Positions 1,265-63,213 of a stretch of 64,000 bases of DNA are shown piece by piece. Both the position numbers and the translations under genes were made by a program. How positions within the stretch are numbered: position 1 is the first letter of the stretch; every line of letters begins with the position of its first letter. The DNA is taken from sequence record NC_050154.1; one strand, given 5' to 3'. The DNA comes from Escherichia phage D6. The notes beneath the pieces are model-generated. The model worked only from the letters and a program-made list of their open reading frames with translations, was not told the DNA's origin and did no database searches.

Positions 1265-1271
1265 TCACAAC

Positions 1272-1291
1272 CGGCCCCGCATCGCGGGGCT
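1272..1291. terminator. Bidirectional hairpin terminator between the convergent 227..1264 gene and pacB
   Basis: ccccgc-atc-gcgggg stem-loop followed by T-rich tract. Confidence 0.5.
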
Positions 1292-2800
1292 TTATATATC
1301 CAGATCCGGCATTTCGATATCCGCCAGAACCTGATCTCGGAAAGTTGCCATTTCGGCACCAATATCTTCATTAGCAGGCACATAGTCCACCAGCATAGTG
1401 AAGCAGTAGGTATCCCATCGGTCAGGCGATTTGATGTTTAGCTTTTGCCGCATGTGCTCTTTGCGCATCATCGCCATTTTCCCTTCTTCATTCAGTAAAA
1501 AGGGGATTTTTGACGCTTGCTCTGCCGTTTTAGGGTCACTGTCTATCCGCATACGCCCTGACTTTATGGCATCACGCGCCATAATATTTGCGTAGGCACG
1601 CTGATTAACAAATCGCTCCCTGTCTTTGTTCGCAAACATGGGTTTTCCCCACCGAATACGTACCGGGTTCGCACCACGACGCACCAACTGCGCACACGTA
1701 TCAGAACCAAAACCATCAGCATCAACCGCGATTGTTATATTCGGGTATTTTTCCGGCGTACATTCGTTATATATGAAGTCAGCAAAGGCCAATGGGTCCA
1801 TAGTGCCAGACATCTCCATTACCTTAAAGTTAACAACGCGCCGCTTATCCCTGTGACCTGATACCTTGCAGATGTTGAGGACCGACTTATCTCGCCCATT
1901 ACCAACGTCAGCCGTTGCCACCCATCCCCAGTTTTTCTCCAACAACACCTTGCGGCGAGCAGCGCGATCGCATTCATCACGACCAAGCAAATAGCCGTTA
2001 ATTTCTCGTGGGAACTGACCAAGCACCTTGACCATGTACTCAATAGAATCGCGCCCGCCATATTCCAGAAGCTTCTGCTTGATGAATTGTGGTGTGACGA
2101 ACGGTGATTCTTCCGAGTTAAGAACAATTGCTGTCCAGATCCCTTTCGGGTTGTCTGGGGTTTTTGCTTGAGAATGGTGCGAATCGTAGAAATAACCACT
2201 TGGCCTTGTTGGCTGGGATAGCATCAACATCCGGTTATCTTCTTCAGTAAGAGCACCGGTCATTACGCCGATCGCCTTATCAGATATACCAGATGCTTCA
2301 TCCAGAATTAGAAGCAAATGTGCCGCGTGTTCCCCCGCCAGCGCTTCTTCGTTGCCGAGTCGATAACCTTTGCAGAGAACTTCCCAAATCCCCTTACGGG
2401 AGCGCTCATAAAACATGGTGTCAGAGAGGACAAAATAGGTCTGCAACCACCCATGACGCTTAACTGCATTCGCCCAATACTGTTTAACGTATTTGAATAC
2501 GCCTGTTTTTACCTGGCCTATCTTGTTAGCAACAATGATGACACGGGCATCGGGGAACAGGATCATGAAAATCAACAGCAACATCGCGGTAAGGGACGAC
2601 TTCCCCGTTCCGTGTCCGGACGTGACGGTCGTCCTACTCCCCGTTTCCTGCACGGACTGAATGATCTGCTGCTGCTGGTGGGAGGGGAACATCCCAAAAA
2701 TATCGACAACAGCTTGGGTAAAGTTGTAGCGGTATTTGATTACCATATCGCGCCAGCGTGGATCGCTGGTGACGCATTTAATCTTGCGCCCTCCAGCCAT
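1292..2800 (-). CDS. pacB: Terminase large subunit (PacB-like)
   Basis: 502 aa; Walker A GHGTGKS; start ATG overlaps the upstream gene stop (TAATG); P1 PacB-like size. Confidence 0.85.
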   Translation of the reverse strand: MAGGRKIKCVTSDPRWRDMVIKYRYNFTQAVVDIFGMFPSHQQQQIIQSVQETGSRTTVTSGHGTGKSSLTAMLLLIFMILFPDARVIIVANKIGQVKTGVFKYVKQYWANAVKRHGWLQTYFVLSDTMFYERSRKGIWEVLCKGYRLGNEEALAGEHAAHLLLILDEASGISDKAIGVMTGALTEEDNRMLMLSQPTRPSGYFYDSHHSQAKTPDNPKGIWTAIVLNSEESPFVTPQFIKQKLLEYGGRDSIEYMVKVLGQFPREINGYLLGRDECDRAARRKVLLEKNWGWVATADVGNGRDKSVLNICKVSGHRDKRRVVNFKVMEMSGTMDPLAFADFIYNECTPEKYPNITIAVDADGFGSDTCAQLVRRGANPVRIRWGKPMFANKDRERFVNQRAYANIMARDAIKSGRMRIDSDPKTAEQASKIPFLLNEEGKMAMMRKEHMRQKLNIKSPDRWDTYCFTMLVDYVPANEDIGAEMATFRDQVLADIEMPDLDI

Positions 2801-4164
2801 TAATCATCCTCCGGCGGTTCTATCGCGATATCATCATCTCCGGCGTCATACCCTGCATCAGATGCATCATAATCACCGTAAATATCAGCCGTTGCCGAAG
2901 GGTCAATATCCAGCTCTTCGTCGTTGGCCTCGAATTCTCCAGCTTTACGCTCGCCATTGCGGTCGTAATCTCCGCACCCCAATTCTTCAACAATGGTTGC
3001 CACATCCGCCCGGCGCTCTGCCAGCCATTGCGGATGGTTAGCCTGAAGCGTCGCAAACTCCCTCGCCTCTTTGTCCAGCTGTTCATCATCAACATCATTG
3101 ACGTCAGAAACAGGTGGTTCGAGAAGAGTGATAGCTTTCGCCGCGCGCGCCGCGAGGATAGCCGGGACGCTGACCCCCTGGCGCTCGATGTATTCAGCAA
3201 CACCGATATCATCCAGTTCCTCGCGCTCACGCATACGTATAGCGGCGGCGATAACTCTGGCAGCGCGTGCGTCAGCGCCAATGCGATATTCAATCTCTTT
3301 GCCACGCTGTTCGGCCTGTAGGCGTGCTAATTCGAGTTTTTCTCTGGCCTCAGCCTCTTTGAATGCTTGCTGGCGAGCGCTCTGACGAAGCTTTTCATCC
3401 CCCTGTCGCAGCTTTTGTTCGGACTGATATATAGCTGCCAACCTACTGATAAAATCATTCATGTAGTAGGCCGCGTCACTGATTAGACCGAGAAGGCGCT
3501 GCCCAGGGTGCATTCCTTCTGGCTCTTTATCGCCCAAGGCGTCTATTTCCGCCTGTAGACGTTCGGCCTCCTGATCAACAATGCTTTGATACTGAAGTGC
3601 GCGCTCTTGCGCCATTTGAATTGCTAACCGCAGGTGTTCTTCTGCGCCGTTCTTCATCATATCGCGAGCCACATTCGTAGTGGGCAATGTGGCACGCTGC
3701 ACAGCACCGCCAGGGATCATTGCTGAAGATCCCTCAATTTTTGGGGCGCTTTTATCTTCTTCGGGGATCATTTTCGCCATTTTTTCGCGCAATGATCTCC
3801 TGACAGATTCTTTTATCTCATTGTTATTATTGGTATTACTTTCATGATCCGAAGTTTTCTTTCTTGGCATACTTCGGAAAGAACCTGCACCCTGCGAATT
3901 GTCAATTTCTGTAAATTTTGTTTTTTCTGCACCCTCTTCCAGCTTTTTTGTTGCTCTTCCCGCCCGTTTTTTTTCAGGTGATTTGGTGCTTTTTTTTGTT
4001 GTCTTTACCTGCGACCGCACCTCATTTTTTTTCATATTGAGATGCTTTCTGGCTGTATTGAAGCTAAGGCCATGCTCCTCACAGTATTCCTTTACAGTGA
4101 TCCCTTTTTCTTCACGCAACGCTATAAAGCGGGCGCGGTGCTCCTCCCAATTAACCAGACTCAT
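2800..4164 (-). CDS. pacA: Terminase small / pac-recognition subunit (PacA-like)
   Basis: 454 aa; N-terminal HTH-like segment (KEYCEEHGLSFNTARKHL); acidic C-terminus; translationally coupled to pacB. Confidence 0.55.
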   Translation of the reverse strand: MSLVNWEEHRARFIALREEKGITVKEYCEEHGLSFNTARKHLNMKKNEVRSQVKTTKKSTKSPEKKRAGRATKKLEEGAEKTKFTEIDNSQGAGSFRSMPRKKTSDHESNTNNNNEIKESVRRSLREKMAKMIPEEDKSAPKIEGSSAMIPGGAVQRATLPTTNVARDMMKNGAEEHLRLAIQMAQERALQYQSIVDQEAERLQAEIDALGDKEPEGMHPGQRLLGLISDAAYYMNDFISRLAAIYQSEQKLRQGDEKLRQSARQQAFKEAEAREKLELARLQAEQRGKEIEYRIGADARAARVIAAAIRMREREELDDIGVAEYIERQGVSVPAILAARAAKAITLLEPPVSDVNDVDDEQLDKEAREFATLQANHPQWLAERRADVATIVEELGCGDYDRNGERKAGEFEANDEELDIDPSATADIYGDYDASDAGYDAGDDDIAIEPPEDD

Positions 4165-4553
4165 AAAGCAACACCACGCTTTTTAACGGCGGCATTCCAC
4201 AGCTTATTCGCCATGTCCACCAGCTCTCGTTGCTCTTTTCGCGCCTGTTCGACTGATTTCCTGCTACAGTTTTTAACCAGTAAGCTACCGTATTCAGGCG
4301 TGCGCCCGCGCACCTTGAACTGATATCCGTTCAGACCATGTAGCCAGTATTTTCGTGGATACACACGATCATCCAGCTCACAGATTGCCCTGCTTGAACG
4401 AACAAAATGACGAATGATGTTAGTTACACTTACTCGTGAAACATGGAGATGAGGGTATTTTTCTTTGGCGAGAGTGGTAATTTCAGTGACTGTCAGATAG
4501 CAGTCAGCCCTGATCATGATATCCGCAATTTCTGCGCTGCTGATTTGTTCCAT
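4161..4553 (-). CDS. Hypothetical protein in the late-promoter-activator position (Lpa-like?)
   Basis: 130 aa; overlaps pacA start (ATGA); operator-like motif 77 bp upstream, as for C1-controlled lpa in P1. Confidence 0.3.
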   Translation of the reverse strand: MEQISSAEIADIMIRADCYLTVTEITTLAKEKYPHLHVSRVSVTNIIRHFVRSSRAICELDDRVYPRKYWLHGLNGYQFKVRGRTPEYGSLLVKNCSRKSVEQARKEQRELVDMANKLWNAAVKKRGVAL

Positions 4554-4629
4554 TAATCCCCCGGGCAGGAAATGACCGAGGGGATGATAATGAGAATGTT
4601 AAAACTGTATAGACTGGTAAAAAGATGAT

Positions 4630-4643
4630 TGTATTAGAAAATT
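4630..4643 (-). promoter_or_regulatory. Operator-like motif (plus strand tgtattagaaaatt) upstream of the 4161..4553 gene
   Basis: Read in the gene's direction it is aattttctaataca; ~30-bp block closely resembles the reverse complement of the site at 54208. Confidence 0.45.
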
Positions 4644-4661
4644 AATATTAAATACCTAATG

Positions 4662-5054
4662 CTACCAGCGAGACAAACGAACAACATGTTTCACTTTTGC
4701 GATCCACTTTCCGCGATAACTATTGATTACGGCCTGTGCCAGCTTCAAATTGGCTTCAAAATCAGCCTTACTACCATCAGACTCCACCAGCATTCCTCCA
4801 TCTATTTCTGGTAAACATAGATAATCCTGCTCAACCTGCAGCGGCATTGATGGCTCTCTGAATGGCGTTACTTGCTCTGCTTTCCAGCGAAATCTAACCC
4901 TCATCCCCCTGGTGGTCATTACTAGATAGCCTGTTATAGTGCTTTTATGGCCCACATCAGTACGCGTGGCATTGCATGACACGATCTTACAGTTAGCGAT
5001 AGACCACTCCATATTGGTGGCCTGTTGAGTGCTTAATTTGGTAGTCCCGTACAT
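4662..5054 (-). CDS. Hypothetical protein
   Basis: 130-aa ORF; overlaps the upstream gene by start/stop coupling. Confidence 0.35.
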   Translation of the reverse strand: MYGTTKLSTQQATNMEWSIANCKIVSCNATRTDVGHKSTITGYLVMTTRGMRVRFRWKAEQVTPFREPSMPLQVEQDYLCLPEIDGGMLVESDGSKADFEANLKLAQAVINSYRGKWIAKVKHVVRLSRW

Positions 5055-5629
5055 CAGAAAGCCTCCCAGTCAGTCGCGATAATATCCACACCAGTTGCAA
5101 ACCAGTCTGTCTGCGCCTGTAAATCACCATTCATCATTACCAGGCGAGGCATCACCATCACATCGCACCCTTCCACAATATCGAATGCCTCTTCCGGCAA
5201 GAATTCGAAGAGCTTTTCTTTGCTGCCAATGCTGCCACGGAACATCGATATATAGCTCCCTTTAGGCCATGATGTCCGCCGGGCATCAAGCCCTTTCATC
5301 ATCCAGTAAAAAGCCGAGGAAAAAGGGATATTCTTTTTGCCAATGATTACATTATTCGCTTCTGTGTACTTCAGGAACTTAACTAACCTTACCATTGACT
5401 CGGATAACGCAACGTATGGCTCATGATTGATTGCTGACACGCTTACACCGTGCAATCCAACGCTTACCACTGTCATATCGCCGCTCTGTGCGGTTTCGAT
5501 ATTGACGCCTTTGCGAACTAATGAGGCGTAAAGTTCCTCTCGCTTTTGGGTCCAGCGTTCACGCTTCCCTATGAAGTCACTCAAAATGAGATCTTCTTCT
5601 GCATATGCGTTATCGTTCGCCATTAACAT
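5054..5629 (-). CDS. Hypothetical protein
   Basis: 191-aa ORF with ATG start; no recognisable motif. Confidence 0.35.
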   Translation of the reverse strand: MLMANDNAYAEEDLILSDFIGKRERWTQKREELYASLVRKGVNIETAQSGDMTVVSVGLHGVSVSAINHEPYVALSESMVRLVKFLKYTEANNVIIGKKNIPFSSAFYWMMKGLDARRTSWPKGSYISMFRGSIGSKEKLFEFLPEEAFDIVEGCDVMVMPRLVMMNGDLQAQTDWFATGVDIIATDWEAF

Positions 5630-6083
5630 AACGTCTCCTTTTTTACACGCGCGACTATCCCCCGGAAGTGCCGGTAGTGATGTCGTAACTTCGTATTAAT
5701 TAAGGGGTACAGCCTGAGCGGCTATATGATGAATTGAAAGGAGTTGTGGCGGTGGTGCCTCCACCTGCCAGGTTAGCCACTCCTGGCGACGTCACTTATC
5801 AGAACGTAGTGAATGAAAATGGCTTCGTCACGAGCGCATAGCCGCAATTACCACAACGGAAACGGCGCTCACGCTAATTAAACGCCTTTTCCTGTTGTGC
5901 GCCGTGCTCTTCCGGCTGTCACACCGAATCGCCAGGATGGTGAATCCTCGGTCCGACGATATGAACGGGGCTTGCACATTCCGGCTACCTGGTTTGTTGC
6001 CTGAGCTAGGGGAAAAGGTAACCCCTTTAACGTCACCAGACCGCTAACGACGCATGTGCCAGACGCCGTGTTACAACCAAATA

Positions 6084-6159
6084 TGGTGGCCCCTACCTGA
6101 CTTGAACCGGTGACCGTGCGATTATGAGTCGCCAGCTCTAACCACTGAGCTAAGGGGCC
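6084..6159 (-). tRNA. tRNA with anticodon CAT (Met or lysidine-Ile2)
   Basis: Hand-folded cloverleaf: acceptor GGCCCCT/AGGGGCC, D-arm GCTC..GAGC, anticodon loop CTCATAA, T-loop TTCAAGT, encoded CCA; one mismatch each in anticodon and T stems. Confidence 0.55.
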
Positions 6160-6168
6160 AATTAGTTT

Positions 6169-6279
6169 TTATTTTCGACGCCTGAGATTCTTCGCTACTT
6201 GTTCTACTCCGTATACGATCACAAGCAGAAATAGCAAAGACCATCCAGGGTTCTTATCAATATACGTCCAAAAATCCAT
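6169..6279 (-). CDS. Small hydrophobic protein (36 aa; tciC-like position)
   Basis: Hand-translated micro-ORF below the ORF-track cutoff; ATG overlaps upstream stop (TGATG); one predicted TM helix. Confidence 0.3.
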   Translation of the reverse strand: MDFWTYIDKNPGWSLLFLLVIVYGVEQVAKNLRRRK

Positions 6280-6443
6280 CATGAGTTCCTGAACGCAGCT
6301 TTAATAATCGGCAATAGCAATACCACAGCTACTGAAACCAGTGCCCCATCAGCCAACACCGACATCACTTTGCTGGTGAAATCCACCAGCACGGACAAAA
6401 CGAGAAAACCAATGGCGCACGCAATACGCGCCTTGCCAATCAT
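6279..6443 (-). CDS. Small membrane protein (54 aa; tciB-like position)
   Basis: Hand-translated micro-ORF; ATG overlaps the TerB-like gene stop (TAATG); two hydrophobic segments. Confidence 0.3.
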   Translation of the reverse strand: MIGKARIACAIGFLVLSVLVDFTSKVMSVLADGALVSVAVVLLLPIIKAAFRNS

Positions 6444-6877
6444 TACAGATAATCTTCCACACGAAGGCCCAAACGACGGCCTACTTCTTCCAGTACTTTG
6501 TGTTCTGCTGGCTCGATTTCACCGTCCGCTTCTGCAATCGTCAGCATGTTAACGAATACTTCTTCCGCTTCTTTTGGATCATTTTTGATATCTTCAATTT
6601 CGCGAAGGATATTCATGCGACCAACACGGAAACCAGCTTCCAGTTGCTCAGTAAAACGGGTGATTGTTGCGGTAATTTCGTTGCCAAAATGACTTAAGCG
6701 AGGATTAGAGCGGACAAGCTGATCAAGTTTCGCTGTTTCTTCCTTTTCGATTTCACCATCTGCGGCAGACACCAACAAACAGCCACCGATAATGGCCTCC
6801 ATCAGATCGCGATTCTCAACCCTTTTCAGCTCTACTTTTGCTGAAGCGACTTTCTTACCGAAAAATTTACCGAACAT
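6443..6877 (-). CDS. TerB-family protein (TciA-like)
   Basis: 144 aa; duplicated acidic EADGEIE motifs typical of TerB; P1 carries TerB-like tciA next to its tRNA genes. Confidence 0.55.
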   Translation of the reverse strand: MFGKFFGKKVASAKVELKRVENRDLMEAIIGGCLLVSAADGEIEKEETAKLDQLVRSNPRLSHFGNEITATITRFTEQLEAGFRVGRMNILREIEDIKNDPKEAEEVFVNMLTIAEADGEIEPAEHKVLEEVGRRLGLRVEDYL

Positions 6878-7144
6878 TGGTTATCCCTCAATAAACATGA
6901 CGTATTTATTAGGTTGCGGTGCCTGGTGCCTCCAGGTGACGTTAACCAGTTAACAATTAACGCCGGGATTTTTGACTTAACCACTAAGGAGGATTGTTTT
7001 AACTGTTCCGCGTGCGCTTAGCCGCATTCACCGCAATGGTAAGAGCACTTGGCTGGCTGGGCGGCGATGACGCCTGTACGCATTTGGTGATCCGGTTCTG
7101 CTTCCGGCATTCGCTTAATTAGCCAAATACTCTTAACGTTGCGC

Positions 7145-45452: not shown

Positions 45453-45698
45453 TTATTCCTCCGAAAAGCAGGTATCTGTTCATTTTCCAGAGGATAGGGA
45501 GTGTGTGATTTGCGATGGGGATTGAATGAAGATCTTTGCCGGTCGAGAAGCGATTATTGAGGGTGATTTTTACACCTTAAGTGACGCTACTCACATATCC
45601 ACAGAGTATTTTTATAAACCTTTTTCCATTTTTAATCCTTTTTAGATCCTTTTTAGGCGTCGCTGGAGCCAGTAGTGGCGCGGGCTGTAGAGGAGGCT

Positions 45699-45816
45699 GG
45701 TGTAAGATTTGCCCTCAATTAAATACGATCGGTGTAAGATTTGCCCTCAAAAGGTGTAAGATTTGCCCTCAAAAGGTGTAGTAATTGCCCTCAAAGTGAT
45801 GTAAAAATTGCCCTCA
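45699..45816 (+). repeat. Five direct ~20-bp iterons upstream of repA (origin / incC-like)
   Basis: ggtgtaagatttgccctcaa x3 then ggtgtagtaattgccctcaa and gatgtaaaaattgccctca, at ~22-bp spacing. Confidence 0.8.
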
Positions 45817-45840
45817 CCATTTGAAGGATCACACAGGGTT

Positions 45841-46596
45841 ATGAACAGAGCGGAATTAACAGCAAAAGCCGTCAGCCTGATTGAGTCAGCGACACCTATT
45901 AGTCGTAGTTTGGCACAAGCCAATGAGATCACGGAGGCTGCTTATCACCTGACTCGCGACCAAAAGCGACTGTTGTTTATTGTGGTGGGAAGACTTCGCT
46001 ATGCTTCTAAGGATGGCGTTCTTGGTTCAGGTGCCTGTGAGTTGACGGTCAACGAATATGCAGAGATGTATAATTTGCCCTCTGCTGAAGCCAGCAAGGA
46101 TATTCGTAAGGCCATTTCAGGTCTTAGCGAGAAGAAAGTTACGATATATAACCCTGATGAATCGACCGAATCAGAAGACAGTTATGAGTCTTATCCTTGG
46201 ATGATTAAGGATGCCTATTCACCACGGCGCGGGACTTACATTATTCATCTTAATCCATATCTCATGCCGTTTTTTACTCTGCTTGATAAGAGATTCACAA
46301 GGCTGAATTTTACCGAAGTATCTCGCCTTACAAATCCTTATTCTATGCGGCTTTATGAGTCCTTATGCCAGTACAGGAAGGATGATGGAAGCGGCTTTGC
46401 CATACTTGGCGTCGAATGGATGCGGGAGCGTTATGGGTTACCAAAAAGCTATCAGCGGTATGCCGAATTTAAGAGAAGTTTTTTAACGAAGGCTGTAGCA
46501 GAGATTGAAAAAAATACAAAAATGAAAATAGTCTTCTCAGAGGTGACGGAAGGCGGCAAAGTTACCAGGATAAAATTTACCTATCAGCAGTCTTAA
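45841..46596 (+). CDS. repA: Iteron-binding plasmid replication initiator (RepA-type)
   Basis: 251 aa from the first ATG (track ORF begins at an upstream TTG inside the last iteron); flanked by iterons on both sides as in the P1 R replicon, but different iteron sequence. Confidence 0.6.
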   Translation: MNRAELTAKAVSLIESATPISRSLAQANEITEAAYHLTRDQKRLLFIVVGRLRYASKDGVLGSGACELTVNEYAEMYNLPSAEASKDIRKAISGLSEKKVTIYNPDESTESEDSYESYPWMIKDAYSPRRGTYIIHLNPYLMPFFTLLDKRFTRLNFTEVSRLTNPYSMRLYESLCQYRKDDGSGFAILGVEWMRERYGLPKSYQRYAEFKRSFLTKAVAEIEKNTKMKIVFSEVTEGGKVTRIKFTYQQS

Positions 46597-55782: not shown

Positions 55783-56589
55783 CTATGGTTCCTTTTTGGT
55801 GTTCTTTTGGAGCGCATCGATAACGCCTTGTGGCATGATTAAACTGATTGCCGGACTCATTACTGCATCATCCAGTAGAGAACCAGTTAACGTGATGGCG
55901 ACAGCGTTCTCTAAACCTTTGGTTGCCTGAGTGGTTGACGTTTTAATGCGACCTGTAAGGGCTACGACACTCTCACTTGCTGAGTTAATTTCGGAGAGTA
56001 AAGCTTCGGCGGCTGTCACTGCTTCCCGTAAAGCATCAATTTCATCCTGAGTAATGACTGGAGCCTGAGCGCCCCCAGCACCACCCTGTCCACCATTGCT
56101 ATCACCACCACCAGCACTTCCGGCAGCTTCAATTTTTGCGTTAATGGCGTTCATGGCGGTTTTCAGAGCATCAAGTTTTAGCGCCGTCAATGCGTCCGTT
56201 AGAGATTGCGGAATGGAAACATTCCCCATTCCCTCAACAAGGGCGAAAGCAGGTATGGGGGTCAGCTCGTTACCTTTTGCGTAGCATTCCCAGCCAATCT
56301 TCATCTGTAACAGCTCTGATGGCTTGGTGTATGGGGAAAGAGAATCAGCCAGTAATGAAGACGCTTTGCTGGCCTCATTGAGCTGTTCAGAAAAGCCAAG
56401 CAATTGAGTAGTCCAGGCCGAAACAGAATCAGGATAGGTTTTATCGGCGTGAACTATTCCCTGTATGGCGCTGGCGAGCGATGAGGCTTTTACAGAAGCT
56501 GCTCGGCTTATGGTTATAGATTCTGGTGTAGAGATACCGGCATCTGACAGAATTTTGAAGGCTTTAACTTCACCTATTGAATCAAGCAT
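55783..56589 (-). CDS. Hypothetical Ala/Gly-rich protein
   Basis: 268 aa from ATG at 56589 (overlaps PAAR stop, TAATG); the track's longer ORF uses an upstream alternative start. Confidence 0.35.
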   Translation of the reverse strand: MLDSIGEVKAFKILSDAGISTPESITISRAASVKASSLASAIQGIVHADKTYPDSVSAWTTQLLGFSEQLNEASKASSLLADSLSPYTKPSELLQMKIGWECYAKGNELTPIPAFALVEGMGNVSIPQSLTDALTALKLDALKTAMNAINAKIEAAGSAGGGDSNGGQGGAGGAQAPVITQDEIDALREAVTAAEALLSEINSASESVVALTGRIKTSTTQATKGLENAVAITLTGSLLDDAVMSPAISLIMPQGVIDALQKNTKKEP

Positions 56590-56873
56590 TATGCAACCTG
56601 AAAAATATCCTCGCCGTTGGCGATAACAGAACCACAAGAAAGCAGATCGCCTACACAGACAACTCCCTTTCCACCTATCGAAAACCATGCTCGCGTCGAT
56701 ACAGCTGCCCCTGGATGTGCACTGTTACCGTCAGTGTGACTGGGAAACATGGCACCATCTACAACAACTGGCTTACCGTTAACGGTGAACCAGGGAACGG
56801 TTTCAGCTACCAGTCGCGGCGGAAATCCTCCGTGACCAGAACAAAGGGTGTCGCTGGTGGCTATTGCGCTCAT
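56589..56873 (-). CDS. PAAR-domain spike-tip protein
   Basis: 94 aa; CSGHGGFPP and VCVGDLLSCGS pattern typical of PAAR; strong RBS AGGAGG. Confidence 0.7.
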   Translation of the reverse strand: MSAIATSDTLCSGHGGFPPRLVAETVPWFTVNGKPVVVDGAMFPSHTDGNSAHPGAAVSTRAWFSIGGKGVVCVGDLLSCGSVIANGEDIFQVA

Positions 56874-56957
56874 TCTTCACCTCCTGGTTATCCTTCTATT
56901 GTCATCACTTTGTTATTTCGTCATTCAAACGGAGAGTTAAATTTCGGAATATTTTTG

Positions 56958-57116
56958 TATTCTCAATTCGCTCTCAAATTTATCTCACTATCAGACCATC
57001 ATTCGGTGGGTGATTAAGATATTCTCAAAATAAACTCAACAAGCGCCCTTTTTTATCTCGTTTGGTGTGGATTTTTGGGGGCTTCTCTTTTAAAATTACA
57101 TTTTGATTCTCAAATG
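56958..57116 (+). repeat. parC-like centromere region with repeated TTCTCAA(A) motifs
   Basis: tattctcaattcg, gctctcaaattt, atattctcaaaat, tgattctcaaatg upstream of parM. Confidence 0.4.
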
Positions 57117-57139
57117 TGTCTCAGAAGTGGAGCAAGAAG

Positions 57140-58096
57140 ATGCGCATTTTTATCGATGATGGTTCAACCAATATCAAAATGCTGTGGGAGCACGACGGGG
57201 AAACTCGCACTCACATCAGCCCTAACAGCTTTAAGCGCGGATGGTCAGCAACATTTGGTGCGGGCAAGCCGTTTAACTATGTCATTGACGACGAAAAGTA
57301 TTCATACGACTTGATATCGCCAGATGTTCTGCCGACGAATAATGTGGAATGGCAATACAGCCCGCTTAACGTCCTGGCTGTTCACCATGCCCTGCTGACA
57401 AGCGGTATTGAGCCGCAGGAAGTAGAAATTGTGGTCACGCTGCCTCTGGCAGAGTTTTACGACGACGACGCGCAATACAATCTCGATAACATCGAGCGCA
57501 AGAAAGCCAGTCTTATGCGCCCCGTCACGCTGAATAAAGGCAATGTATTCACTATTAAGAAAGTTACGGTACGCCCGGAGTCTATCCCGGCGGGAATTAG
57601 CCTGTGCGACAATCTGAACCCTGCCCACTCTGTTCTTATCGTCGATTTGGGTGGAACTACCCTTGATGTTTCAATGGTCGCTGGACAAATGACGGCAGTT
57701 TCCCGTGTTTTTGGCGATTCGAATCTTGGTGTATCACTGGTCACCAGGGAAGTAAGGCAAGCACTTGCAAGGGCCAATACCGAAACGTCAAATTACAATG
57801 TTGATCAGCTCATTATTAACCGCCACGATGAAGATTATCTGAACGACAATATCAATGACCCATCAGCGATTGGTGATGTGAAAAAGGCCATTGCCGCAAG
57901 CATTGACCGTCTGCGTACCCGCGTTCTTGATGTGATTGGCGACTTTAAAGGATATACGCATGTCATGGTGATCGGTGGTGGCGCACCGCTGGTGGCAGAT
58001 GCAATTCGCGAGCAAGTTAATATTCGTGATGACCGTTTCTTCGTGGCGGATGACCCGCAACTTGCTCTTGTTCATGGCCTGAAAGCAATCGGTTAA
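57140..58096 (+). CDS. parM: Actin-like plasmid segregation ATPase ParM (StbA)
   Basis: MRIFIDDGSTNIK ... ISPNSFKRGW ... VAVHHALLTSG closely parallels plasmid R1 ParM; ATG at 57140 with GGAG RBS. Confidence 0.85.
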   Translation: MRIFIDDGSTNIKMLWEHDGETRTHISPNSFKRGWSATFGAGKPFNYVIDDEKYSYDLISPDVLPTNNVEWQYSPLNVLAVHHALLTSGIEPQEVEIVVTLPLAEFYDDDAQYNLDNIERKKASLMRPVTLNKGNVFTIKKVTVRPESIPAGISLCDNLNPAHSVLIVDLGGTTLDVSMVAGQMTAVSRVFGDSNLGVSLVTREVRQALARANTETSNYNVDQLIINRHDEDYLNDNINDPSAIGDVKKAIAASIDRLRTRVLDVIGDFKGYTHVMVIGGGAPLVADAIREQVNIRDDRFFVADDPQLALVHGLKAIG

Positions 58097-58102
58097 CGAG
58101 GT

Positions 58103-58447
58103 ATGTCCATGTCTCAGGAACGTAAGAAAGTGATGATTTATCTTCGCCCAGAGGCTTATGCCAATGAAAAGGCGGCGAGCGAGAAGATAAAAAAACATAG
58201 CGATATGGCAAGAACTGCATTGTTGGCAGGGCTTGCGCTGGGAGAAGTCGATAGCAGGCTTCCAGGATTACTGGCTTCCCTGCTGACCGAAGACAATAAC
58301 CCGGAGCTGATCCGAAAAATGCTGGCATCCTTCTTGGAACTACCAGCTGCGGTTGAGGAGCGCCCTGCCTCCATTGAGCCAGTGAAGGAGCAATTTGTTG
58401 CCAAAAGCGCGTCGGCGCGCAATCTGGCTGACTCTCTACCTGATTGA
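58103..58447 (+). CDS. parR: ParR (StbB) centromere-binding adaptor
   Basis: 114 aa; RTALLAGLAL matches R1 ParR RAALTAGLAL; directly downstream of parM. Confidence 0.7.
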   Translation: MSMSQERKKVMIYLRPEAYANEKAASEKIKKHSDMARTALLAGLALGEVDSRLPGLLASLLTEDNNPELIRKMLASFLELPAAVEERPASIEPVKEQFVAKSASARNLADSLPD

Positions 58448-58465
58448 CAGAAGATGTGCTGGTTT

Positions 58466-58490
58466 AAGGCTGCAAATTGCAGCCTTTTTT
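58466..58490 (+). terminator. Rho-independent terminator after parR
   Basis: aaggctgca-aat-tgcagcctt followed by TTTT. Confidence 0.65.
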
Positions 58491-58500
58491 ATGCCTTAAT

Positions 58501-58570
58501 GGTGTCTAATTAGTGTTAATCTGGCACCAGTTAGGTGCTGTTATGGTGCAATTTTGTATCTGGTTCCAAT
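58501..58570. repeat. GGTGC/GGTTC-type repeats at ~11-bp phasing upstream of parA (putative centromere/operator)
   Basis: ggtgtc, ggcacc, ggtgct, ggtgca, ggttcc spaced about one helical turn apart. Confidence 0.4.
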
Positions 58571-58734
58571 TTGGGGCTGCTTTCGTGTTAAATAGGATGC
58601 AATATAAGGTGTATTTGGTCTGATTGATGTTATACTTTGCCAAACATTCATGACTCCATTATAGAGCCTGTCCCGCATCAAAAAGGCTCTTATCTGGAAC
58701 CGTTTTGATACCAAAATCACACCGAGGAACGGAT

Positions 58735-59376
58735 ATGATTATATTGGTAGTCAGCCAAAAAGGTGGCTGTGGAAAATCAACCACAAGCGTAAACATCTGT
58801 GCGGAGCTTGCCCGCGAAAATAAGGATGTAGTGTTACTAGATGCAGACAAGCAAGGAACAGCTGCCCGCTGGGCAGCTGACCGTAACACGGCAGAGGTTT
58901 CTCCTGTAATTCATTGTGTCCAGAAGTTTGGTAATATTCGAGAAACACTTCTCGATCTGGATAAGCGTTATGAATTTGTAGTTGTTGATACAGCCGGGCG
59001 CGATAGCAAAGAGATGCGTACAGGCATAACCGCTGCAGATATTGTGTTGGTCCCATTCAGACCATCTCAACCAGATTTAGACACGCTGGCACACTTTGTT
59101 GAAGTGTTTGAAGAGGCTTTGGACCTGATGCCTAATCCTAGCATCAAGGCGTTCGCAGTCTTAACAATGGCCCCATCCAATCCGGTTGTGAATGAAACCA
59201 ATGAGGCCAAAGAGTACCTGGCTGAATATCCGCAACTGAAGTTGCTGAAAACCATCATTCGTGATCGTAAGGTTTACCGCGATTGCATGGCTGAAGGGAA
59301 GGGCGTTGTTGAGATGGACAACGGGAAAGCTAAAGGTGAAATCCAGATGTTGGTTAAGGAGTTATTAAGTGATTAA
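58735..59376 (+). CDS. Small ParA-family partition ATPase (type Ib)
   Basis: Walker A KGGCGKST; 213 aa from ATG at 58735 with GAGGAA RBS. Confidence 0.75.
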   Translation: MIILVVSQKGGCGKSTTSVNICAELARENKDVVLLDADKQGTAARWAADRNTAEVSPVIHCVQKFGNIRETLLDLDKRYEFVVVDTAGRDSKEMRTGITAADIVLVPFRPSQPDLDTLAHFVEVFEEALDLMPNPSIKAFAVLTMAPSNPVVNETNEAKEYLAEYPQLKLLKTIIRDRKVYRDCMAEGKGVVEMDNGKAKGEIQMLVKELLSD

Positions 59377-59656
59377 GCCTCGTAAATCGGTAAAAGCCCC
59401 CGAAGTAAAAGACCCTGATCTTGAACGCCGAATTGAGGATTTTGCCAGTAAGGCTGATTTGGTGCCGGGTGAGCAACCAGAAGACAACAAAGTGCTCGAT
59501 AAGGACGCTCCACGTGATTTTAAATCTATTCGTGTTGGTTTCAATGAATACGAGTACCAAGTACTTGATGCGTTAAGTAAAAAGCATAATCGCAGCAAAT
59601 TGAATATGATCCGCCATGCTATCCTCATGTTAGCGGAGTCTGAGGAAGCAAAATAA
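59369..59656 (+). CDS. ParG-like centromere-binding protein (ribbon-helix-helix C-terminus)
   Basis: 95 aa; GTG start with AAGGAG RBS overlapping the parA stop; C-terminal IRVGFNEYEYQVLDALSKKHNRSKLNMIRHAI is RHH-like. Confidence 0.5.
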   Translation: MIKPRKSVKAPEVKDPDLERRIEDFASKADLVPGEQPEDNKVLDKDAPRDFKSIRVGFNEYEYQVLDALSKKHNRSKLNMIRHAILMLAESEEAK

Positions 59657-59690
59657 AGTCTTTCAGGTTGGTTTTAGAACTTAAAAAGTC

Positions 59691-59760
59691 TTGAACCAAA
59701 GGTGCACCAATACACCACTAATTTGGTGCACCTTTACATCCTTTTTGGTTCCAATTGTGT
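59691..59760. repeat. Second block of GGTGCACC / TTGGTTCC repeats downstream of parG
   Basis: Palindromic GGTGCACC twice (25-bp spacing) plus ttggttccaa; includes a terminator-like hairpin. Confidence 0.4.
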
Positions 59761-59924
59761 ACCATTTGTCATTAATTTACTTATGCGCAAAAGTGGGCTT
59801 CATGAAAAAGCTCATTATTGAAATAACGATAGAAAGCAATTTCTAATCAACTAGTGGTTGTCAGCCTATTCGGCTTATAAGATCATACGCTGTTATACGT
59901 TGTTTACGCTTTGAGGAATCCACA

Positions 59925-61586
59925 ATGAGTGAGGCAGAAGCCCGCCCGACTAACTTTATTCGTCAGATCATCGATGAAGATCTGGCCAGTGGTAAGCACA
60001 CCACAGTACATACCCGTTTCCCGCCGGAACCGAATGGCTATCTGCATATTGGTCATGCGAAATCTATCTGCCTGAACTTCGGGATCGCCCAGGACTATAA
60101 AGGCCAGTGCAACCTGCGTTTCGACGACACTAACCCGGTAAAAGAAGATATCGAGTACGTCGAGTCGATTAAAAACGACGTTGAATGGTTAGGTTTTCAC
60201 TGGTCTGGCAACATCCGTTACTCCTCCGATTATTTTGACAAACTCCATGCCTATGCTGTTGAACTGATCAACAAAGGCCTGGCGTATGTTGACGAACTGA
60301 CGCCGGAACAGATCCGCGAATACCGCGGCACCCTGACGCAGCCGGGTAAAAATAGCCCGTACCGCGATCGCAGCGTTGAAGAGAACCTGGCGCTGTTCGA
60401 AAAAATGCGTGCCGGTGGTTTTGAAGAAGGTAAAGCCTGCCTGCGTGCGAAAATCGATATGGCTTCGCCGTTTATCGTGATGCGCGACCCGGTGCTGTAC
60501 CGCATTAAGTTTGCTGAACACCACCAGACTGGCAACAAGTGGTGCATCTACCCGATGTACGACTTCACCCACTGCATCAGCGATGCGCTGGAAGGTATTA
60601 CGCACTCTCTGTGTACGCTTGAGTTCCAGGACAACCGTCGTCTGTATGACTGGGTACTGGACAACATCACCATTCCTGTTCACCCGCGCCAGTACGAATT
60701 CTCGCGCCTGAATCTGGAATACACTGTGATGTCCAAGCGTAAGCTGAACCTGCTGGTGACCGACAAGCACGTTGAAGGCTGGGATGACCCGCGTATGCCG
60801 ACCATTTCCGGTCTGCGTCGTCGTGGTTACACTGCTGCTTCTATTCGTGAGTTCTGCAAACGCATCGGCGTGACCAAGCAGGACAACACCATTGAGATGG
60901 CGTCGTTGGAATCCTGCATCCGTGAAGATCTCAACGAAAATGCGCCGCGCGCAATGGCGGTTATCGATCCGGTGAAACTGGTTATCGAAAACTATCAGGG
61001 CGAAGGCGAAATGGTCACCATGCCGAACCATCCGAACAAACCGGAAATGGGGAGCCGTCAGGTGCCGTTTAGCGGTGAGATTTGGATTGATCGCGCCGAT
61101 TTCCGCGAAGAAGCTAACAAGCAGTACAAACGTCTGGTGCTGGGTAAAGAAGTGCGTCTGCGTAATGCTTATGTGATTAAGGCAGAACGCGTCGAGAAAG
61201 ATGCCGAAGGTAATATCACCACCATCTTCTGTACTTATGACGCCGATACCTTAAGCAAAGATCCGGCAGATGGTCGTAAAGTCAAAGGTGTTATTCACTG
61301 GGTGAGCGCGGCACATGCGCAGCCGGTTGAAATCCGTTTGTATGACCGTCTGTTCAGCGTGCCGAACCCAGGTGCTGCGGATGATTTCCTGTCGGTGATT
61401 AACCCGGAATCGCTGGTGATCAAACAGGGCTTTGCTGAACCGTCGCTGAAAGATGCGGTTGCGGGTAAAGCATTCCAGTTTGAGCGTGAAGGTTACTTCT
61501 GCCTCGACAGCCGCCATTCTACGGCGGAAAAACCGGTATTTAACCGCACCGTTGGGCTGCGTGATACCTGGGCGAAGTTAGGTTAA
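59925..61586 (+). CDS. glnS: Glutaminyl-tRNA synthetase
   Basis: 553 aa; HIGH motif (HIGH at residues ~40-43), VMSKR motif; near-identical along its length to E. coli GlnS as I recall it. Confidence 0.95.
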
Positions 61587-61611: not shown

Positions 61612-61636
61612 AAACGCCGCTACTGCGGCGTTTTTT
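61612..61636. terminator. Bidirectional rho-independent terminator between glnS and dam
   Basis: aacgccgc-tact-gcggcg followed by TTTTTT; A-run upstream. Confidence 0.7.
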
Positions 61637-62540
61637 ACTTCATTATTGCAATTATATCGTTAGCAACTACACGTGTTGACGCCTTGCAGGACACCGACCG
61701 TCTGGCTGCCATATGATGTACTTTAAACCCGTTTCCTTCATATAGTTCACGGATGTTTGGCGCACCACTATTTGTTATCACTACCTTAGCGCCGCGCTGG
61801 TGGGCTTCCACCAATAGAGATACCAGCCGTTTCTGTTCGTCGAAACGGAAGCTATTTCCTGAATAACTGGTAAACCCTTCTGTATCCGGCAGCGGTTCAT
61901 ACGGCGGATCGCAAAAAATCACATCGCCTTCACCAGCCGCCTCGATGACGCCAGCAAAGTCACCTGATACAAAGGACGTGTTTTTGAGTACGTCATCAGC
62001 CAAAAATGCCTCCATCTCTGCATGTGGGAAGTAGGGCGCTTTGTATTTGCCATACCCCACGTTGAACTCGCCATTTTGGTTGTACCGCGTTACGCCATTA
62101 AAACAGTGCCGATTAAGGTACAAAAAGGCGGCAGCATGATGTAGCTGGTCATACTTTCCTCTGTTAAATGCCTCACGCACTTCGAGGTAAGCGTCAGCGT
62201 TGTTGTAATTTTGGAAAAAACTATATGACAGCGTGACGAGCGAATGTCCTTCTCGCTGCAATGTCTGATAGAAGTTAATCAGGTCACCGTTAATATCATT
62301 AAGCAGGTTGTGGCGAAATCCTGCATTCGTAAATACGGAACCGCCACCAACGAATGGTTCTATTAACCGCTTACCGTGTGGTAGATGCTCAAGCACTGTA
62401 GGCAATTCTGAGAATTTACCACCTACCCATTTGAATATCGGACGCTCATATTCATCCGGAGTCCGAATGGTGCGCATATAGCTAATTTCAGCCATCGTAT
62501 CCTGTTTTTCTATGGCTATGCTTGCTATAGATTTACTCAT
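61635..62540 (-). CDS. dam: Dam-family N6-adenine DNA methyltransferase
   Basis: KWVGGK, FLYLNR, EFNV and DPPY motifs aligned to E. coli Dam; ATG at 62540 overlaps the upstream gene stop (ATGAGTAA). Confidence 0.8.
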   Translation of the reverse strand: MSKSIASIAIEKQDTMAEISYMRTIRTPDEYERPIFKWVGGKFSELPTVLEHLPHGKRLIEPFVGGGSVFTNAGFRHNLLNDINGDLINFYQTLQREGHSLVTLSYSFFQNYNNADAYLEVREAFNRGKYDQLHHAAAFLYLNRHCFNGVTRYNQNGEFNVGYGKYKAPYFPHAEMEAFLADDVLKNTSFVSGDFAGVIEAAGEGDVIFCDPPYEPLPDTEGFTSYSGNSFRFDEQKRLVSLLVEAHQRGAKVVITNSGAPNIRELYEGNGFKVHHMAARRSVSCKASTRVVANDIIAIMK

Positions 62541-63213
62541 AGAGCACCCCCTTATTCGCTTCGAAAACTGCCTTTGCGAATCCATGTGGAGTAGCACTTC
62601 GAAAATTAGCCCTGTCAGGCCCTGGTGGCGCGGCATGGATTCTGTTATCTGGCTTGCCTAATGATTCGTCCATTAGGGCATCAGGCATGACAAAGCCCTG
62701 GCCGCTCCAGAGGCATGTTTTTTTGGTGTAGTTATCTTCCTGACAATATGCAGTGAAGAAGTAAGGGTGAAAGATGTGATCTGGCTTACGCCAGAATGTC
62801 GATATTTTGCTGACCGGATTTTCAATCATGTACGGACAACCGATCATCTTTGCAATGTCATAACACTGCCAGACAACCTGCATTGCTTTGAACTGGAAAA
62901 CCGGATCTTTATTAGCCTTGTCCGAAAACCAGCGCGCGCCGGAAACAGCCAGGTCAGTACACGGTGGGAACCCGGCCAGAAACACGATGCGCTGCAAATT
63001 CTTACGGAGAAAAGCGTATACTTCATCGCTATCGATGATCGCACTAATACGCGTCAGAACGGCACCTGATTGCATCCGCTCGTCACTGGTCGATAAGTGC
63101 TGTGGATCGACGATAGCGGCATCGACACCGTATTCCAGCCAGGGGGCAACCATTGCCCCCGTAAAATCACAAAGACTCACAACAAGCGGTCGGTTATTAT
63201 CGTTCTGCTTCAC
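62533..63213 (-). CDS. Compact C5-cytosine-methyltransferase-like protein (start uncertain)
   Basis: [12 protein letters not shown] (PC motif IV-like) and YMIENP (ENV motif VI-like); candidate GTG start at 63213 with GGAGG RBS; too short for a full C5-MTase with target-recognition domain. Confidence 0.4.

What the first reader, a model, noticed from the sequence alone, without database searches (positions are those of the whole stretch)
56958..59760. Two partition systems side by side: ParMR (type II) and ParA/RHH (type Ib), each with its own repeat block
P1 itself uses a single type Ia ParA/ParB system next to repA. Here an actin-type ParM/ParR pair with TTCTCAA repeats upstream is immediately followed by a small Walker-type ParA and an RHH protein flanked by phased GGTGC-type repeats, and neither is next to repA. 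The redundancy suggests module acquisition from other plasmids and might affect incompatibility.
Basis: partly seen in the sequence, partly recalled or inferred. Interest (0 to 1): 0.45.

Follow-up and report, generated by a model that had tools for sequence, protein, structure and literature searches.

The report
Two plasmid-partition cassettes in tandem
This stretch of a D6-like (distantly P1-like) phage-plasmid carries two complete, intact DNA-segregation systems side by side, an actin-type ParM/ParR and a Walker-type ParA with a small ribbon-helix-helix partner, each with its own 11-bp-phased repeat arrays; the combination is a known and common design, so it is a correct but ordinary finding.

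Summary
The window is a D6-like plasmid prophage: this region is 99.9% identical to pYU39_89, and about 120 E. coli/Salmonella plasmids carry the block.

Window 56959-59770 holds these parts:
- About 8 phased 11-bp CTCA iterons (parC).
- parM, 54% identical to R1-type ParM.
- parR.
- A conserved terminator.
- About 19 degenerate GGYRCC hexamers on an 11-bp register, split by a conserved extended -10 promoter.
- A 213-aa ParA with a deviant Walker A motif, 43% identical to pB171 par2 ParA.
- An overlapping 95-aa gene.
- A second array of about 10 hexamers.

The 95-aa protein is published as "Cop" or "hypothetical". It has a C-terminal ribbon-helix-helix fold, an invariant basic N-terminus, and always follows a small ParA in distant relatives. 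It is best read as the centromere-binding partner.

All four genes are intact and under strong purifying selection (dN/dS 0.01-0.15). The block is conserved in place in diverged relatives. The Rep3 origin lies about 10 kb away.

Type II plus type Ib double loci are known (pB171) and are reported in 971 PLSDB plasmids. The modestly new points are the tandem rather than divergent layout, an unannotated partner family, and a mosaic, much more diverged ParA cassette. Function in stability is inferred, not shown.

The parts
56959..57127 (+). parC-like centromere and operator of the ParMR cassette. It holds about 8 iterons of 11 bp (core CTCA, best copies TTCTCAAAT) in three clusters: 56959-56991, 57021-57064 and 57106-57127. 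A putative -10 box TAAAAT lies at 57091-57096, between clusters 2 and 3.
   Evidence: CTCA positions and enrichment come, and the lag-11 autocorrelation z = 22. The invariant alignment columns coincide with the CTCA cores, and L007 and L010 each carry an insertion of one 11-bp unit. The promoter is inferred from conservation only; the consensus scan did not report it.
57140..58096 (+). parM, an actin-like segregation ATPase of 318 aa.
   Evidence: Pfam StbA_N 9.5e-70 and the ParM C-terminal domain 3.5e-55. PDB R1 ParM 3.7e-111. It is 54% identical to an R1-type ParM and 43% to a pB171-type ParM. dN/dS is 0.009-0.022. The actin-fold motifs DDGSTNIK, DLGGTTLD and IGGGA can be read directly in the translation.
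58109..58447 (+). parR (stbB), the adaptor that binds the iterons; 112 aa.
   Evidence: Pfam Plasmid_stab_B 3.4e-11. pB171 ParR structure 2jd3, 1.6e-6. It is 31% identical to an R1-type ParR. dN/dS is 0.08-0.15.
58466..58492 (+). Intrinsic terminator hairpin (AAGGCTGCAAATTGCAGCCTT followed by a T-run) that closes the parMR operon.
   Evidence: Top terminator hit in the scan. It is almost invariant in the five orthologous loci, with one substitution in the loop of L011, while the flanking sequence diverges.
58497..58723 (+). Upstream array of the ParA cassette, parC1-like. About 12 degenerate GGYRCC-type hexamers with A/T-rich spacers lie on an 11-bp register (58497-58622). A conserved extended -10 promoter TGTTATACT follows (58628-58636). 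About 7 further units follow (58652-58723), ending just before the RBS.
   Evidence: The 11-bp register is visible when the sequence is printed 11 bases per line. Autocorrelation z is 14, 9 and 6 at lags 11, 22 and 33. Core spacings are multiples of 11. L008 carries an 11-bp unit insertion. TGTTATACT is invariant in all five loci, and the longer TTGATGTTATACT is kept in four of five, with one substitution in L011. Promoter function is inferred.
58735..59376 (+). parA, a small type Ib Walker-type partition ATPase of 213 aa with no N-terminal HTH domain.
   Evidence: NCBIfam ParA_partition 7.3e-48, 162.8 bits, below the curated cut-off of 180. Pfam AAA_31, CbiA, MipZ and VirC1. PDB ParF of TP228 1.5e-18. 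It is 43% identical to a pB171-type par2 ParA. dN/dS is about 0.02. The deviant Walker A motif KGGCGKST and the Walker B motif VVVDTAGRD can be read in the translation.
59369..59656 (+). Gene for a 95-aa protein that is the putative centromere-binding partner (ParB/ParG-type). It has a basic N-terminus (MIKPRK, R5 invariant), helix 16-29, a linker, and a C-terminal ribbon-helix-helix domain at about 50-92. GenBank and the literature call it 'hypothetical' or 'Cop'.
59665..59770 (+). Downstream array of the ParA cassette, parC2-like. About 10 units lie on the 11-bp register, including two palindromic GGTGCACC cores (59701, 59725), GGTTCC (59747) and TGTACC (59758).
   Evidence: Inverted repeat of 13 nt with 100% complementarity, 59698-59710 against 59723-59735. 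Autocorrelation z is 5.4 at lag 11 in the window alone, and 8 and 10.5 at lags 11 and 22 over five loci. Equivalent arrays of 11-12 units lie downstream in L007, L010 and L011, where they end at a terminator.

Best explanation
The region is a double partition locus of a D6-like plasmid prophage. It consists of two self-contained, separately transcribed segregation cassettes in tandem.

Cassette 1 is a type II ParMRC system of the R1/pB171 kind:
- ParR dimers (N-terminal RHH) coat the roughly 8 CTCA iterons of 11 bp upstream of parM. This represses the promoter embedded among the iterons.
- The ParR/parC complex caps ParM actin-like filaments, which push sister plasmids apart.

A conserved intrinsic terminator separates cassette 1 from cassette 2.

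Cassette 2 is a type Ib system:
- The 95-aa RHH protein binds cooperatively to degenerate GGYRCC hexamers spaced 11 bp apart (one helical turn, so all on one DNA face).
- There are two arrays. One is upstream and straddles an extended -10 promoter, so binding would also autorepress. The other is downstream.
- Through its basic N-terminal tail the protein would stimulate the nucleoid-bound ParA ATPase, giving equipositioning of plasmid copies as described for pB171 par2 and TP228 ParFG.

Shown here: gene identities, intactness, purifying selection, the fold of the partner protein, the repeat architecture and its conservation, conserved synteny, and distance from the Rep3 origin.

Inferred: DNA binding by each adaptor to its array, the promoters and autoregulation, ATPase stimulation, and that both cassettes contribute to prophage-plasmid stability.
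For: Protein identities.

RHH partner:
- Family-wide RHH hits.
- Alignment to CopG.
- Confident AlphaFold2 model of residues 50-90.
- Invariant R5, K52, R82 and conserved M1, K3, R4.
- Conserved parA-partner gene pair with overlapping stop and start in distant gammaproteobacterial contigs.

Repeats: 11-bp periodicity with z up to 22, the register, unit-sized indels, and core spacings that are multiples of 11.

Terminator.

Selection and intactness: dN/dS 0.01-0.15 with no internal stops. The block is full length in 104-120 PLSDB plasmids and in all diverged relatives.

Precedent:
- A pB171-type double locus with arrays upstream and downstream of parAB was found in pE21845IncF.
- parC1+ and parC2+ constructs are used in PMC4270457.
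- The type I RHH plus type II combination is reported in 971 PLSDB accessions (PMC13245405).
- TP228 parH-OF is an array of 12 + 8 degenerate boxes with AT spacers upstream of parFG (PMC3130281).
- R1 ParR binds 11-bp repeats, and ten repeats flank the promoter (PMC9426499).
Against: - No experiment on this locus was found in the papers I could read.
- The hexamer cores are degenerate. In the window itself the upstream array gives only a weak periodic signal (z about 2-3.5).
- Neither promoter passed the simple sigma-70 scan.
- The partner protein has no detectable sequence similarity to ParG, omega or pB171 ParB. Its role rests on fold, synteny and context.
- NCBIfam's ParA_partition score is below that model's curated cut-off.
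- Both systems being needed for stability is not implied by sequence. In SCP1, only one of two functional systems mattered under laboratory conditions.
Confidence: 0.85

Rival explanations
1. Only one cassette (most likely ParMRC, the more conserved one) is the working partition system. On this reading the ParA/RHH pair is functionally redundant, or serves mainly another role, such as transcriptional control or exclusion and incompatibility against competing D6-like plasmids.
For: parM and parR are 96-99% identical in DNA among four lineages. parA, the RHH gene and their arrays are only 53-88% identical and are mosaic. This shows different evolutionary regimes. In SCP1 only one of two functional par systems was required under laboratory conditions (PMC13245405).
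Against: parA and the RHH gene are under purifying selection as strong as that on parM and parR (dN/dS 0.02-0.09). Both are retained in every relative examined. The same GGYRCC core is kept in all alleles, so there is no sign of specificity switching. The architecture (array, promoter, parA, partner, array) is that of a complete type Ib system.
Confidence: 0.12
2. The 95-aa RHH protein is a CopG-like copy-number or transcriptional repressor, as in the published annotation 'Cop', and is not a centromere-binding partition protein. The ParA would then be an orphan.
For: [quoted passage not shown] The profile aligns with CopG of pMV158, although at E 0.22 only. RHH proteins are frequently repressors.
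Against: The gene is translationally coupled to parA and lies about 13 kb from the Rep3 initiator and its iterons. Across a family of at least 123 clusters, the members inspected always follow a small ParA. The protein has a roughly 50-residue N-terminal extension with an invariant arginine, as type Ib centromere-binding proteins do (PMC3130281 and PMC3074162). Arrays of about 10-19 sites on both flanks far exceed a simple operator.
Confidence: 0.03

Closest known systems
Double par locus of E. coli plasmid pB171 (par1 = ParMR type II, par2 = ParAB type Ib; Ebersbach & Gerdes 2001, cited). An example was examined here in pE21845IncF (L017).
   Same: It has the same combination of one type II and one type Ib system directly adjacent. 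ParA is 43% identical (5e-59) and ParM is 43% identical. ParR matches the pB171 ParR structure. The ParA partner is a roughly 91-95-aa protein with a C-terminal RHH-type sequence and an N-terminus beginning M-V/I-K. Repeat arrays lie both upstream (around the promoter) and downstream of the parA-parB pair (parC1 and parC2).
   Different: The cassettes here are in tandem on one strand and are separated by a terminator. Each has its own upstream array. In pB171 they are divergent around a shared parC1, so the ParR/ParB cross-talk at a common region is not built in here. The partner protein shows no significant similarity to pB171 ParB (E 0.14). hhalign finds only a weak 28-column N-terminal match with probability 7.6%. 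The repeat sequences are unrelated: a GGYRCC core on an 11-bp register here, against TCACA-type repeats in pB171. The host replicon is a phage-plasmid rather than a conjugative IncF plasmid.
ParMRC of plasmid R1 (type II prototype)
   Same: ParM is 54% identical to an R1-type ParM over the full length (PDB 1mwk 3.7e-111). ParR belongs to the StbB/Plasmid_stab_B family. The centromere is built of 11-bp direct repeats placed around the promoter upstream of parM; R1 has ten 11-bp repeats flanking the promoter (PMC9426499 text and reference 5).
   Different: ParR is only 31% identical. The iteron sequence is unrelated: a CTCA core here, against A/C-rich ACCCA-type repeats in the R1-type pHN3A11. 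There are about 8 units in clusters of 3 + 3 + 2 rather than 5 + 5. The closest parC grammar found elsewhere is in the MOBH plasmid pT270A.
ParF/ParG/parH of plasmid TP228 (type Ib prototype with a solved RHH centromere-binding protein)
   Same: ParF is the best solved-structure match of this ParA (1.5e-18 over the full length). The partner is a small protein with a flexible N-terminal tail plus a C-terminal RHH domain. The centromere plus operator is a long array of degenerate short boxes with AT-rich spacers upstream of the operon, split into a distal set and a promoter-proximal set: 12 + 8 in TP228 against about 12 + 7 here.
   Different: No sequence similarity to ParG is detectable, even with a family profile. 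The boxes here are hexamers on an 11-bp period, against ACTC tetramers separated by 4-bp spacers in TP228. This locus has an additional downstream array.

Membership tests
Type II (ParMRC) plasmid partition system | Actin-fold ParM ATPase | tested here: met
   Pfam StbA_N 9.5e-70 plus the ParM C-terminal domain 3.5e-55, both well above their cut-offs. R1 ParM structures match at 3.7e-111 over residues 1-318.
Type II (ParMRC) plasmid partition system | Small ParR adaptor encoded immediately downstream of parM | tested here: met
   Pfam Plasmid_stab_B 43.3 bits against a cut-off of 25. pB171 ParR 2jd3 matches at 1.6e-6. The gene starts 13 nt after the parM stop.
Type II (ParMRC) plasmid partition system | parC: direct repeats upstream of parM, around the promoter | tested here: met
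   There are 7 CTCA and 1 CTCG cores on an 11-bp phase, all on one strand. Autocorrelation z is 22 at lag 11. The cores are conserved and indels are unit-sized. The promoter position is inferred only.
Type II (ParMRC) plasmid partition system | ParR binds parC, and the locus stabilises a plasmid | not testable with these tools
   This needs EMSA or footprinting and plasmid-loss assays.
Type Ib (small ParA + RHH centromere-binding protein) partition system | Small deviant Walker A ParA lacking the N-terminal HTH domain of type Ia | tested here: met
   The protein is 213 aa and the Walker A motif KGGCGKST begins at residue 9. It aligns end to end with ParF, which is 206 aa, and with pB171-type ParA, which is 214 aa. 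The NCBIfam ParA_partition hit covers model positions 1-203 but scores 162.8 against a cut-off of 180.
Type Ib (small ParA + RHH centromere-binding protein) partition system | [quoted passage not shown] | tested here: met
Type Ib (small ParA + RHH centromere-binding protein) partition system | Centromere of iterated short sites upstream of the operon, overlapping the promoter | tested here: met
   About 12 + 7 units on an 11-bp register lie around the conserved TGTTATACT. The signal is weak in the window alone and strong across orthologues.
Type Ib (small ParA + RHH centromere-binding protein) partition system | Partner binds the repeats and stimulates the ParA ATPase through its N-terminal tail | not testable with these tools
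   The only indication is conservation of M1, K3, R4 and R5, with R5 invariant in 64 sequences.
pB171-type double par locus | Type II and type Ib cassettes directly adjacent on one replicon | tested here: met
   parR ends at 58447 and parA starts at 58735.
pB171-type double par locus | Divergent transcription from a shared central parC1 region | tested here: not met
   Both cassettes are on the + strand, each has its own upstream array, and a terminator lies between them. Compare the divergent layout in L017.
pB171-type double par locus | ParB (par2) homologous to pB171 ParB | tested here: not met
   BLASTP E 0.14. hhalign probability 7.6%, N-terminal 28 columns only.
TP228 ParFG | Partner homologous in sequence to ParG | tested here: not met
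   No PDB ParG hit at E up to 10 with the single sequence or with two family profiles.
CopG-type copy-number control (published annotation 'Cop') | RHH repressor encoded with, and acting on, the replication initiator operon | tested here: not met
   The RHH fold is present, but the gene overlaps parA and lies about 13 kb from the Rep3 initiator and its iterons. Family-wide synteny is with a small ParA.

The most novel reading that the evidence does not exclude
The 95-aa partner defines a so far unnamed family of type Ib centromere-binding proteins. The family has at least 123 clusters at 50% identity, mostly from gammaproteobacterial plasmids and metagenomes. No Pfam model covers it and every source name is 'hypothetical'. 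Its centromere grammar is distinctive: pseudo-palindromic GGYRCC hexamers at exactly one helical turn (11 bp), placed on both flanks of the operon. In D6-like prophages this cassette is a recombination hot spot. It is mosaic and only 53-88% identical in DNA, next to a 96-99% conserved ParMRC. That pattern could reflect selection acting on ParA-partner pairing, or on compatibility between co-circulating prophage-plasmids.
Probability: 0.35. Interest if true: 0.4.

Novelty: new member of a known kind. Interest (0 to 1): 0.25.

Why it matters
D6-like phage-plasmids are common in E. coli and Salmonella; more than 100 complete plasmids in PLSDB carry this block.

Knowing that they carry two complete segregation systems helps explain their persistence. 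They also have two toxin-antitoxin pairs and a Cre-like recombinase. The par sites would also be the sites to test for incompatibility with other plasmids.

The practical corrections are small but useful:
- The gene published as 'cop' or 'hypothetical' is best annotated as the ParA partner (a ParG/ParB-type RHH protein).
- The three repeat arrays give defined candidate centromeres for experiments and for engineering stable vectors.

Conceptually the finding adds nothing new. Double type II plus type Ib loci have been known since pB171 and are reported in about a thousand plasmids.

Tried and rejected
1. The INPHARED phage collection gave no match to the par block with either megablast or blastn. 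The element was identified through PLSDB and the literature instead.
2. Tandem Repeats Finder at minimum score 30 did not report any of the three par arrays, and the repeat finder split them into short families. The arrays only became clear from k-mer autocorrelation and from printing the sequence 11 bases per line.
3. The sigma-70 consensus scan did not report either proposed promoter. Both remain inferences from conservation.
4. Sequence searches of the 95-aa protein against the PDB gave no ParG, omega or pB171 hit. The first AlphaFold2 run, with 10 close homologues, was poor (pLDDT 59.7). A 64-sequence alignment was needed.
5. The pB171 accessions NC_002142 and AB024946 are not in the collections. 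I located a pB171-type locus with the ParR fragment shown in the PDB alignment.
6. The key papers PMC64986 (pB171 double par locus) and PMC5800970 (D6 genome) are not held. I therefore cannot say whether the D6 paper already describes two systems.
7. I considered that the diverged ParA cassette alleles carry different centromere specificities, as a way to escape incompatibility. This is not supported: the same GGYRCC core and 11-bp register occur in all five alleles, and the beta-strand FKSIRV(G/S)F is almost invariant.
8. The IncK/Z ParA-adjacent small protein (L014) is unrelated to this family.
9. Rfam found nothing meaningful in 56000-60500.
10. G+C content gives no sign of recent acquisition of the par cassettes.


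Full report
**What the element is**

The 2.9-kb region matches 123 PLSDB plasmids by megablast. Of these, 104 match over at least 80% of the query, and 121 are non-mobilizable; those listed are about 75-96 kb and come from E. coli, Salmonella and Shigella. It matches nothing in the phage collection, even with sensitive blastn.

The best hit, at 99.9% identity, is CP011430, which is pYU39_89. PMC6799933 describes that plasmid as a D6-like plasmid prophage that is 99% identical to phage D6. Structural genes elsewhere in the window are only about 72-75% identical to P1, and only over short stretches. The window is therefore a D6-like (P1-g2) phage-plasmid, not P1 itself.

**Genes**

I used the RefSeq starts of the near-identical NZ_CP122910.

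- **ParM, 57140-58096.** A full-length actin-type ParM. Pfam gives 9.5e-70 and 3.5e-55. R1 ParM structures match at 3.7e-111. It is 54% identical to an R1-type ParM and 43% to a pB171-type ParM.
- **ParR, 58109-58447.** A member of the StbB/ParR family. It matches the pB171 ParR structure 2jd3 at 1.6e-6.
- **Terminator, 58466-58492.** A strong intrinsic terminator. It is almost invariant in five orthologous loci, with one loop substitution in L011, while its flanks diverge.
- **ParA, 58735-59376.** A 213-aa ParA with a deviant Walker A motif and no N-terminal HTH domain. Its best solved relative is ParF of TP228 (1.5e-18). It is 43% identical to the par2 ParA of a pB171-type locus. Its NCBIfam ParA_partition score of 162.8 bits is below that model's cut-off of 180.
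- **95-aa ORF, 59369-59656.** It overlaps the parA stop codon by 8 nt.

**The 95-aa protein**

It has no Pfam hit. The indexed search found only close homologues. An exhaustive profile search found 123 cluster representatives of 55-130 aa. A second indexed search found 134 proteins; every source name among the 120 listed is 'hypothetical', and only one carries a precomputed Pfam domain (NikA-like).

The family alignment shows four features:
- a conserved basic N-terminus (M1, K3, R4, with R5 invariant);
- a short helix (IE-FA--AD);
- a variable linker;
- a C-terminal block, FK-IRV-FNEYEY--L----------RSKLN-IR-AI.

Several lines of evidence point to a ribbon-helix-helix fold:
- Family members hit RHH Pfam families: NikA-like in 16 of 60, RHH_1 in 13 of 60, plus DUF6290, RHH_7 and TraY.
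- The profile aligns end to end with CopG, although weakly (E 0.22).
- With a 64-sequence alignment, AlphaFold2 gives pLDDT above 90 for residues 50-90, as an extended segment followed by two helices.

In Hahella and Methyloprofundus contigs and in an environmental Enterobacteriaceae plasmid, the homologue directly follows a roughly 209-aa ParA. [quoted passage not shown] That label does not fit well: the Rep3 initiator and its 22-bp iterons lie about 13 kb away. Fold, tail, translational coupling and synteny all point to a ParG/ParB-type centromere-binding partner.

**Repeats upstream of parM**

The real unit is an 11-bp iteron with a CTCA core. There are seven CTCA, all on the + strand, at 56962/73/84, 57024/35 and 57109/20, plus CTCG at 57057.

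Across five orthologous loci, the invariant alignment columns coincide with these cores. L007 and L010 each carry an insertion of exactly one unit. 4-mer autocorrelation peaks at lag 11 with z = 22.

**Repeats flanking parA and the RHH gene**

The parR-parA spacer and the region downstream of the RHH gene also show 11-bp periodicity. z is 14, 9 and 6 at lags 11, 22 and 33 upstream, and 8 and 10.5 at lags 11 and 22 downstream. Printing the sequence 11 bases per line shows a degenerate hexamer close to GGYRCC with A/T-rich spacers.

- About 12 units precede a conserved extended -10 box, TGTTATACT (58628-58636).
- About 7 units follow that box, up to the RBS.
- About 10 units lie downstream, at 59665-59770.
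- Spacings between strong cores are mostly multiples of 11, and L008 has a one-unit insertion.
- In the window alone the upstream signal is weak (z 2-3.5). The call relies partly on the orthologues.

**Integrity and history**

All four ORFs are intact, with dN/dS of 0.009-0.15 against four relatives. The block sits between the same neighbours (the PAAR gene upstream, dam and rdgC downstream) in all the diverged relatives I examined. Its G+C content matches the surroundings. It is therefore ancestral to this lineage rather than a recent insertion.

The two cassettes evolve differently. Among four lineages, parM and parR are 96-99% identical in DNA. By contrast, parA is 75-84% identical, the RHH gene 71-78% and the arrays 49-88%, apart from L007 and L010, which share one allele through the RHH gene. 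Similarity patterns between pairs of loci are discordant, which indicates recombination inside the type Ib cassette. The same hexamer core occurs in all alleles, so I see no evidence for switched centromere specificity.

**Comparison with known systems**

*pB171.* Double loci that combine type II and type Ib systems are known from pB171 (cited). A 2026 survey counts type I RHH plus type II in 971 PLSDB accessions. I recovered a pB171-type locus in pE21845IncF. Its cassettes are divergent around a shared parC1. Its ParB shows no significant similarity to the protein here, and its repeats are unrelated.

*R1.* R1-type parC iterons are also unrelated in sequence. A MOBH plasmid, pT270A, has similar CTCA iterons.

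*TP228.* TP228 parH-OF is an array of 12 + 8 degenerate boxes with AT spacers upstream of parFG. It is the closest analogue to the upstream array here.

*Earlier descriptions of this lineage.* The separation of partition from replication in the D6-like group is already published. The four genes are listed in PMC6799933 as one 'partition system'.

**Verdict**

Both the observation and the interpretation are right. The locus is a new member of a known kind.

What may be new is modest:
- the tandem, insulated layout;
- the unannotated partner family;
- the 11-bp hexamer arrays on both flanks;
- the mosaic divergence of the ParA cassette.

Function in plasmid stability, DNA binding, autoregulation and incompatibility are inferred and remain untested. 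I could not read the original D6 genome paper. It may already describe part of this.

Noticed in passing
window 59925-61586: A full-length glutaminyl-tRNA synthetase gene (glnS) sits directly after the downstream par array. Its G+C content is 0.52-0.54, against about 0.45 for the par region. PMC6799933 discusses it as a cargo gene and says it is present in all D6-like genomes. However, the diverged relatives L010 and L011 lack it. In those two loci, and in L007, the array ends at a terminator, and in L010 and L011 dam follows.
   Followed up: partly
window 57140-59776 compared with L007, L008, L010 and L011: There is a sharp change in divergence at the parR-parA spacer. parM and parR are 96-99% identical in DNA among four lineages, but parA, the RHH gene and both arrays are only 49-88% identical. 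The pairwise patterns are discordant: for example, L008 resembles the window downstream but resembles L011 in parA. This is a recombination mosaic confined to the type Ib cassette.
   Followed up: partly
window 45731-46596: The plasmid replication module lies here, embedded among tail and baseplate genes. It consists of a Rep3-family initiator (WH1 and WH2 domains, 45808-46596) preceded by 3.9 copies of a 22-bp iteron (45731-45816) and an A/T-rich 11-bp repeat (45625-45656).
   Followed up: partly
L016 2370-2500 (plasmid pT270A, NZ_MW298662.1): A conjugative MOBH plasmid carries a parM that is 66.8% identical in DNA. Upstream of it are very similar phased CTCA iterons (ATTTCTCAAATTAATCTCAC...) and a TAAAAT box. 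It is a candidate for parC-mediated cross-incompatibility with D6-like prophages.
   Followed up: no
L002 (plasmid of Enterobacteriaceae bacterium Kacie_13, CP045667.1) 700-6900: The closest non-D6 relative of the ParA (66.8% amino-acid identity), together with an 86-aa partner, lies next to a RepB initiator. A type Ia ParA/ParB pair lies on the other side of that initiator. This is a different kind of double par arrangement, type Ia plus type Ib.
   Followed up: no
window 59369-59460 compared with L017 1560-1646 (- strand): The N-terminus of pB171-type ParB (MVKKPSQQALNRAAVTVEQAEALAQRLA) weakly resembles the family consensus here (MVKRRep...pt-eqIEAFAs-AD). The RHH domains show no similarity. 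This could be a shared ParA-contact motif, given that the ParAs are 43% identical, but the statistics are weak (hhalign probability 7.6%).
   Followed up: partly
window 56589-56873 (- strand): A PAAR-domain protein gene (Pfam PAAR_motif 1.8e-6) lies immediately upstream of parC. It is conserved at this position in all relatives and is presumably a tail-spike tip protein of the phage.
   Followed up: no
window 61635-62636 (- strand) compared with L008 8264-10552: The D12-class adenine methyltransferase next to glnS is a 333-aa ORF in the window. In L008 it is called as a 762-aa protein that combines DNA_methylase (C5) and MethyltransfD12 domains. The methylase module is therefore variable or fused among relatives.
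   Followed up: no
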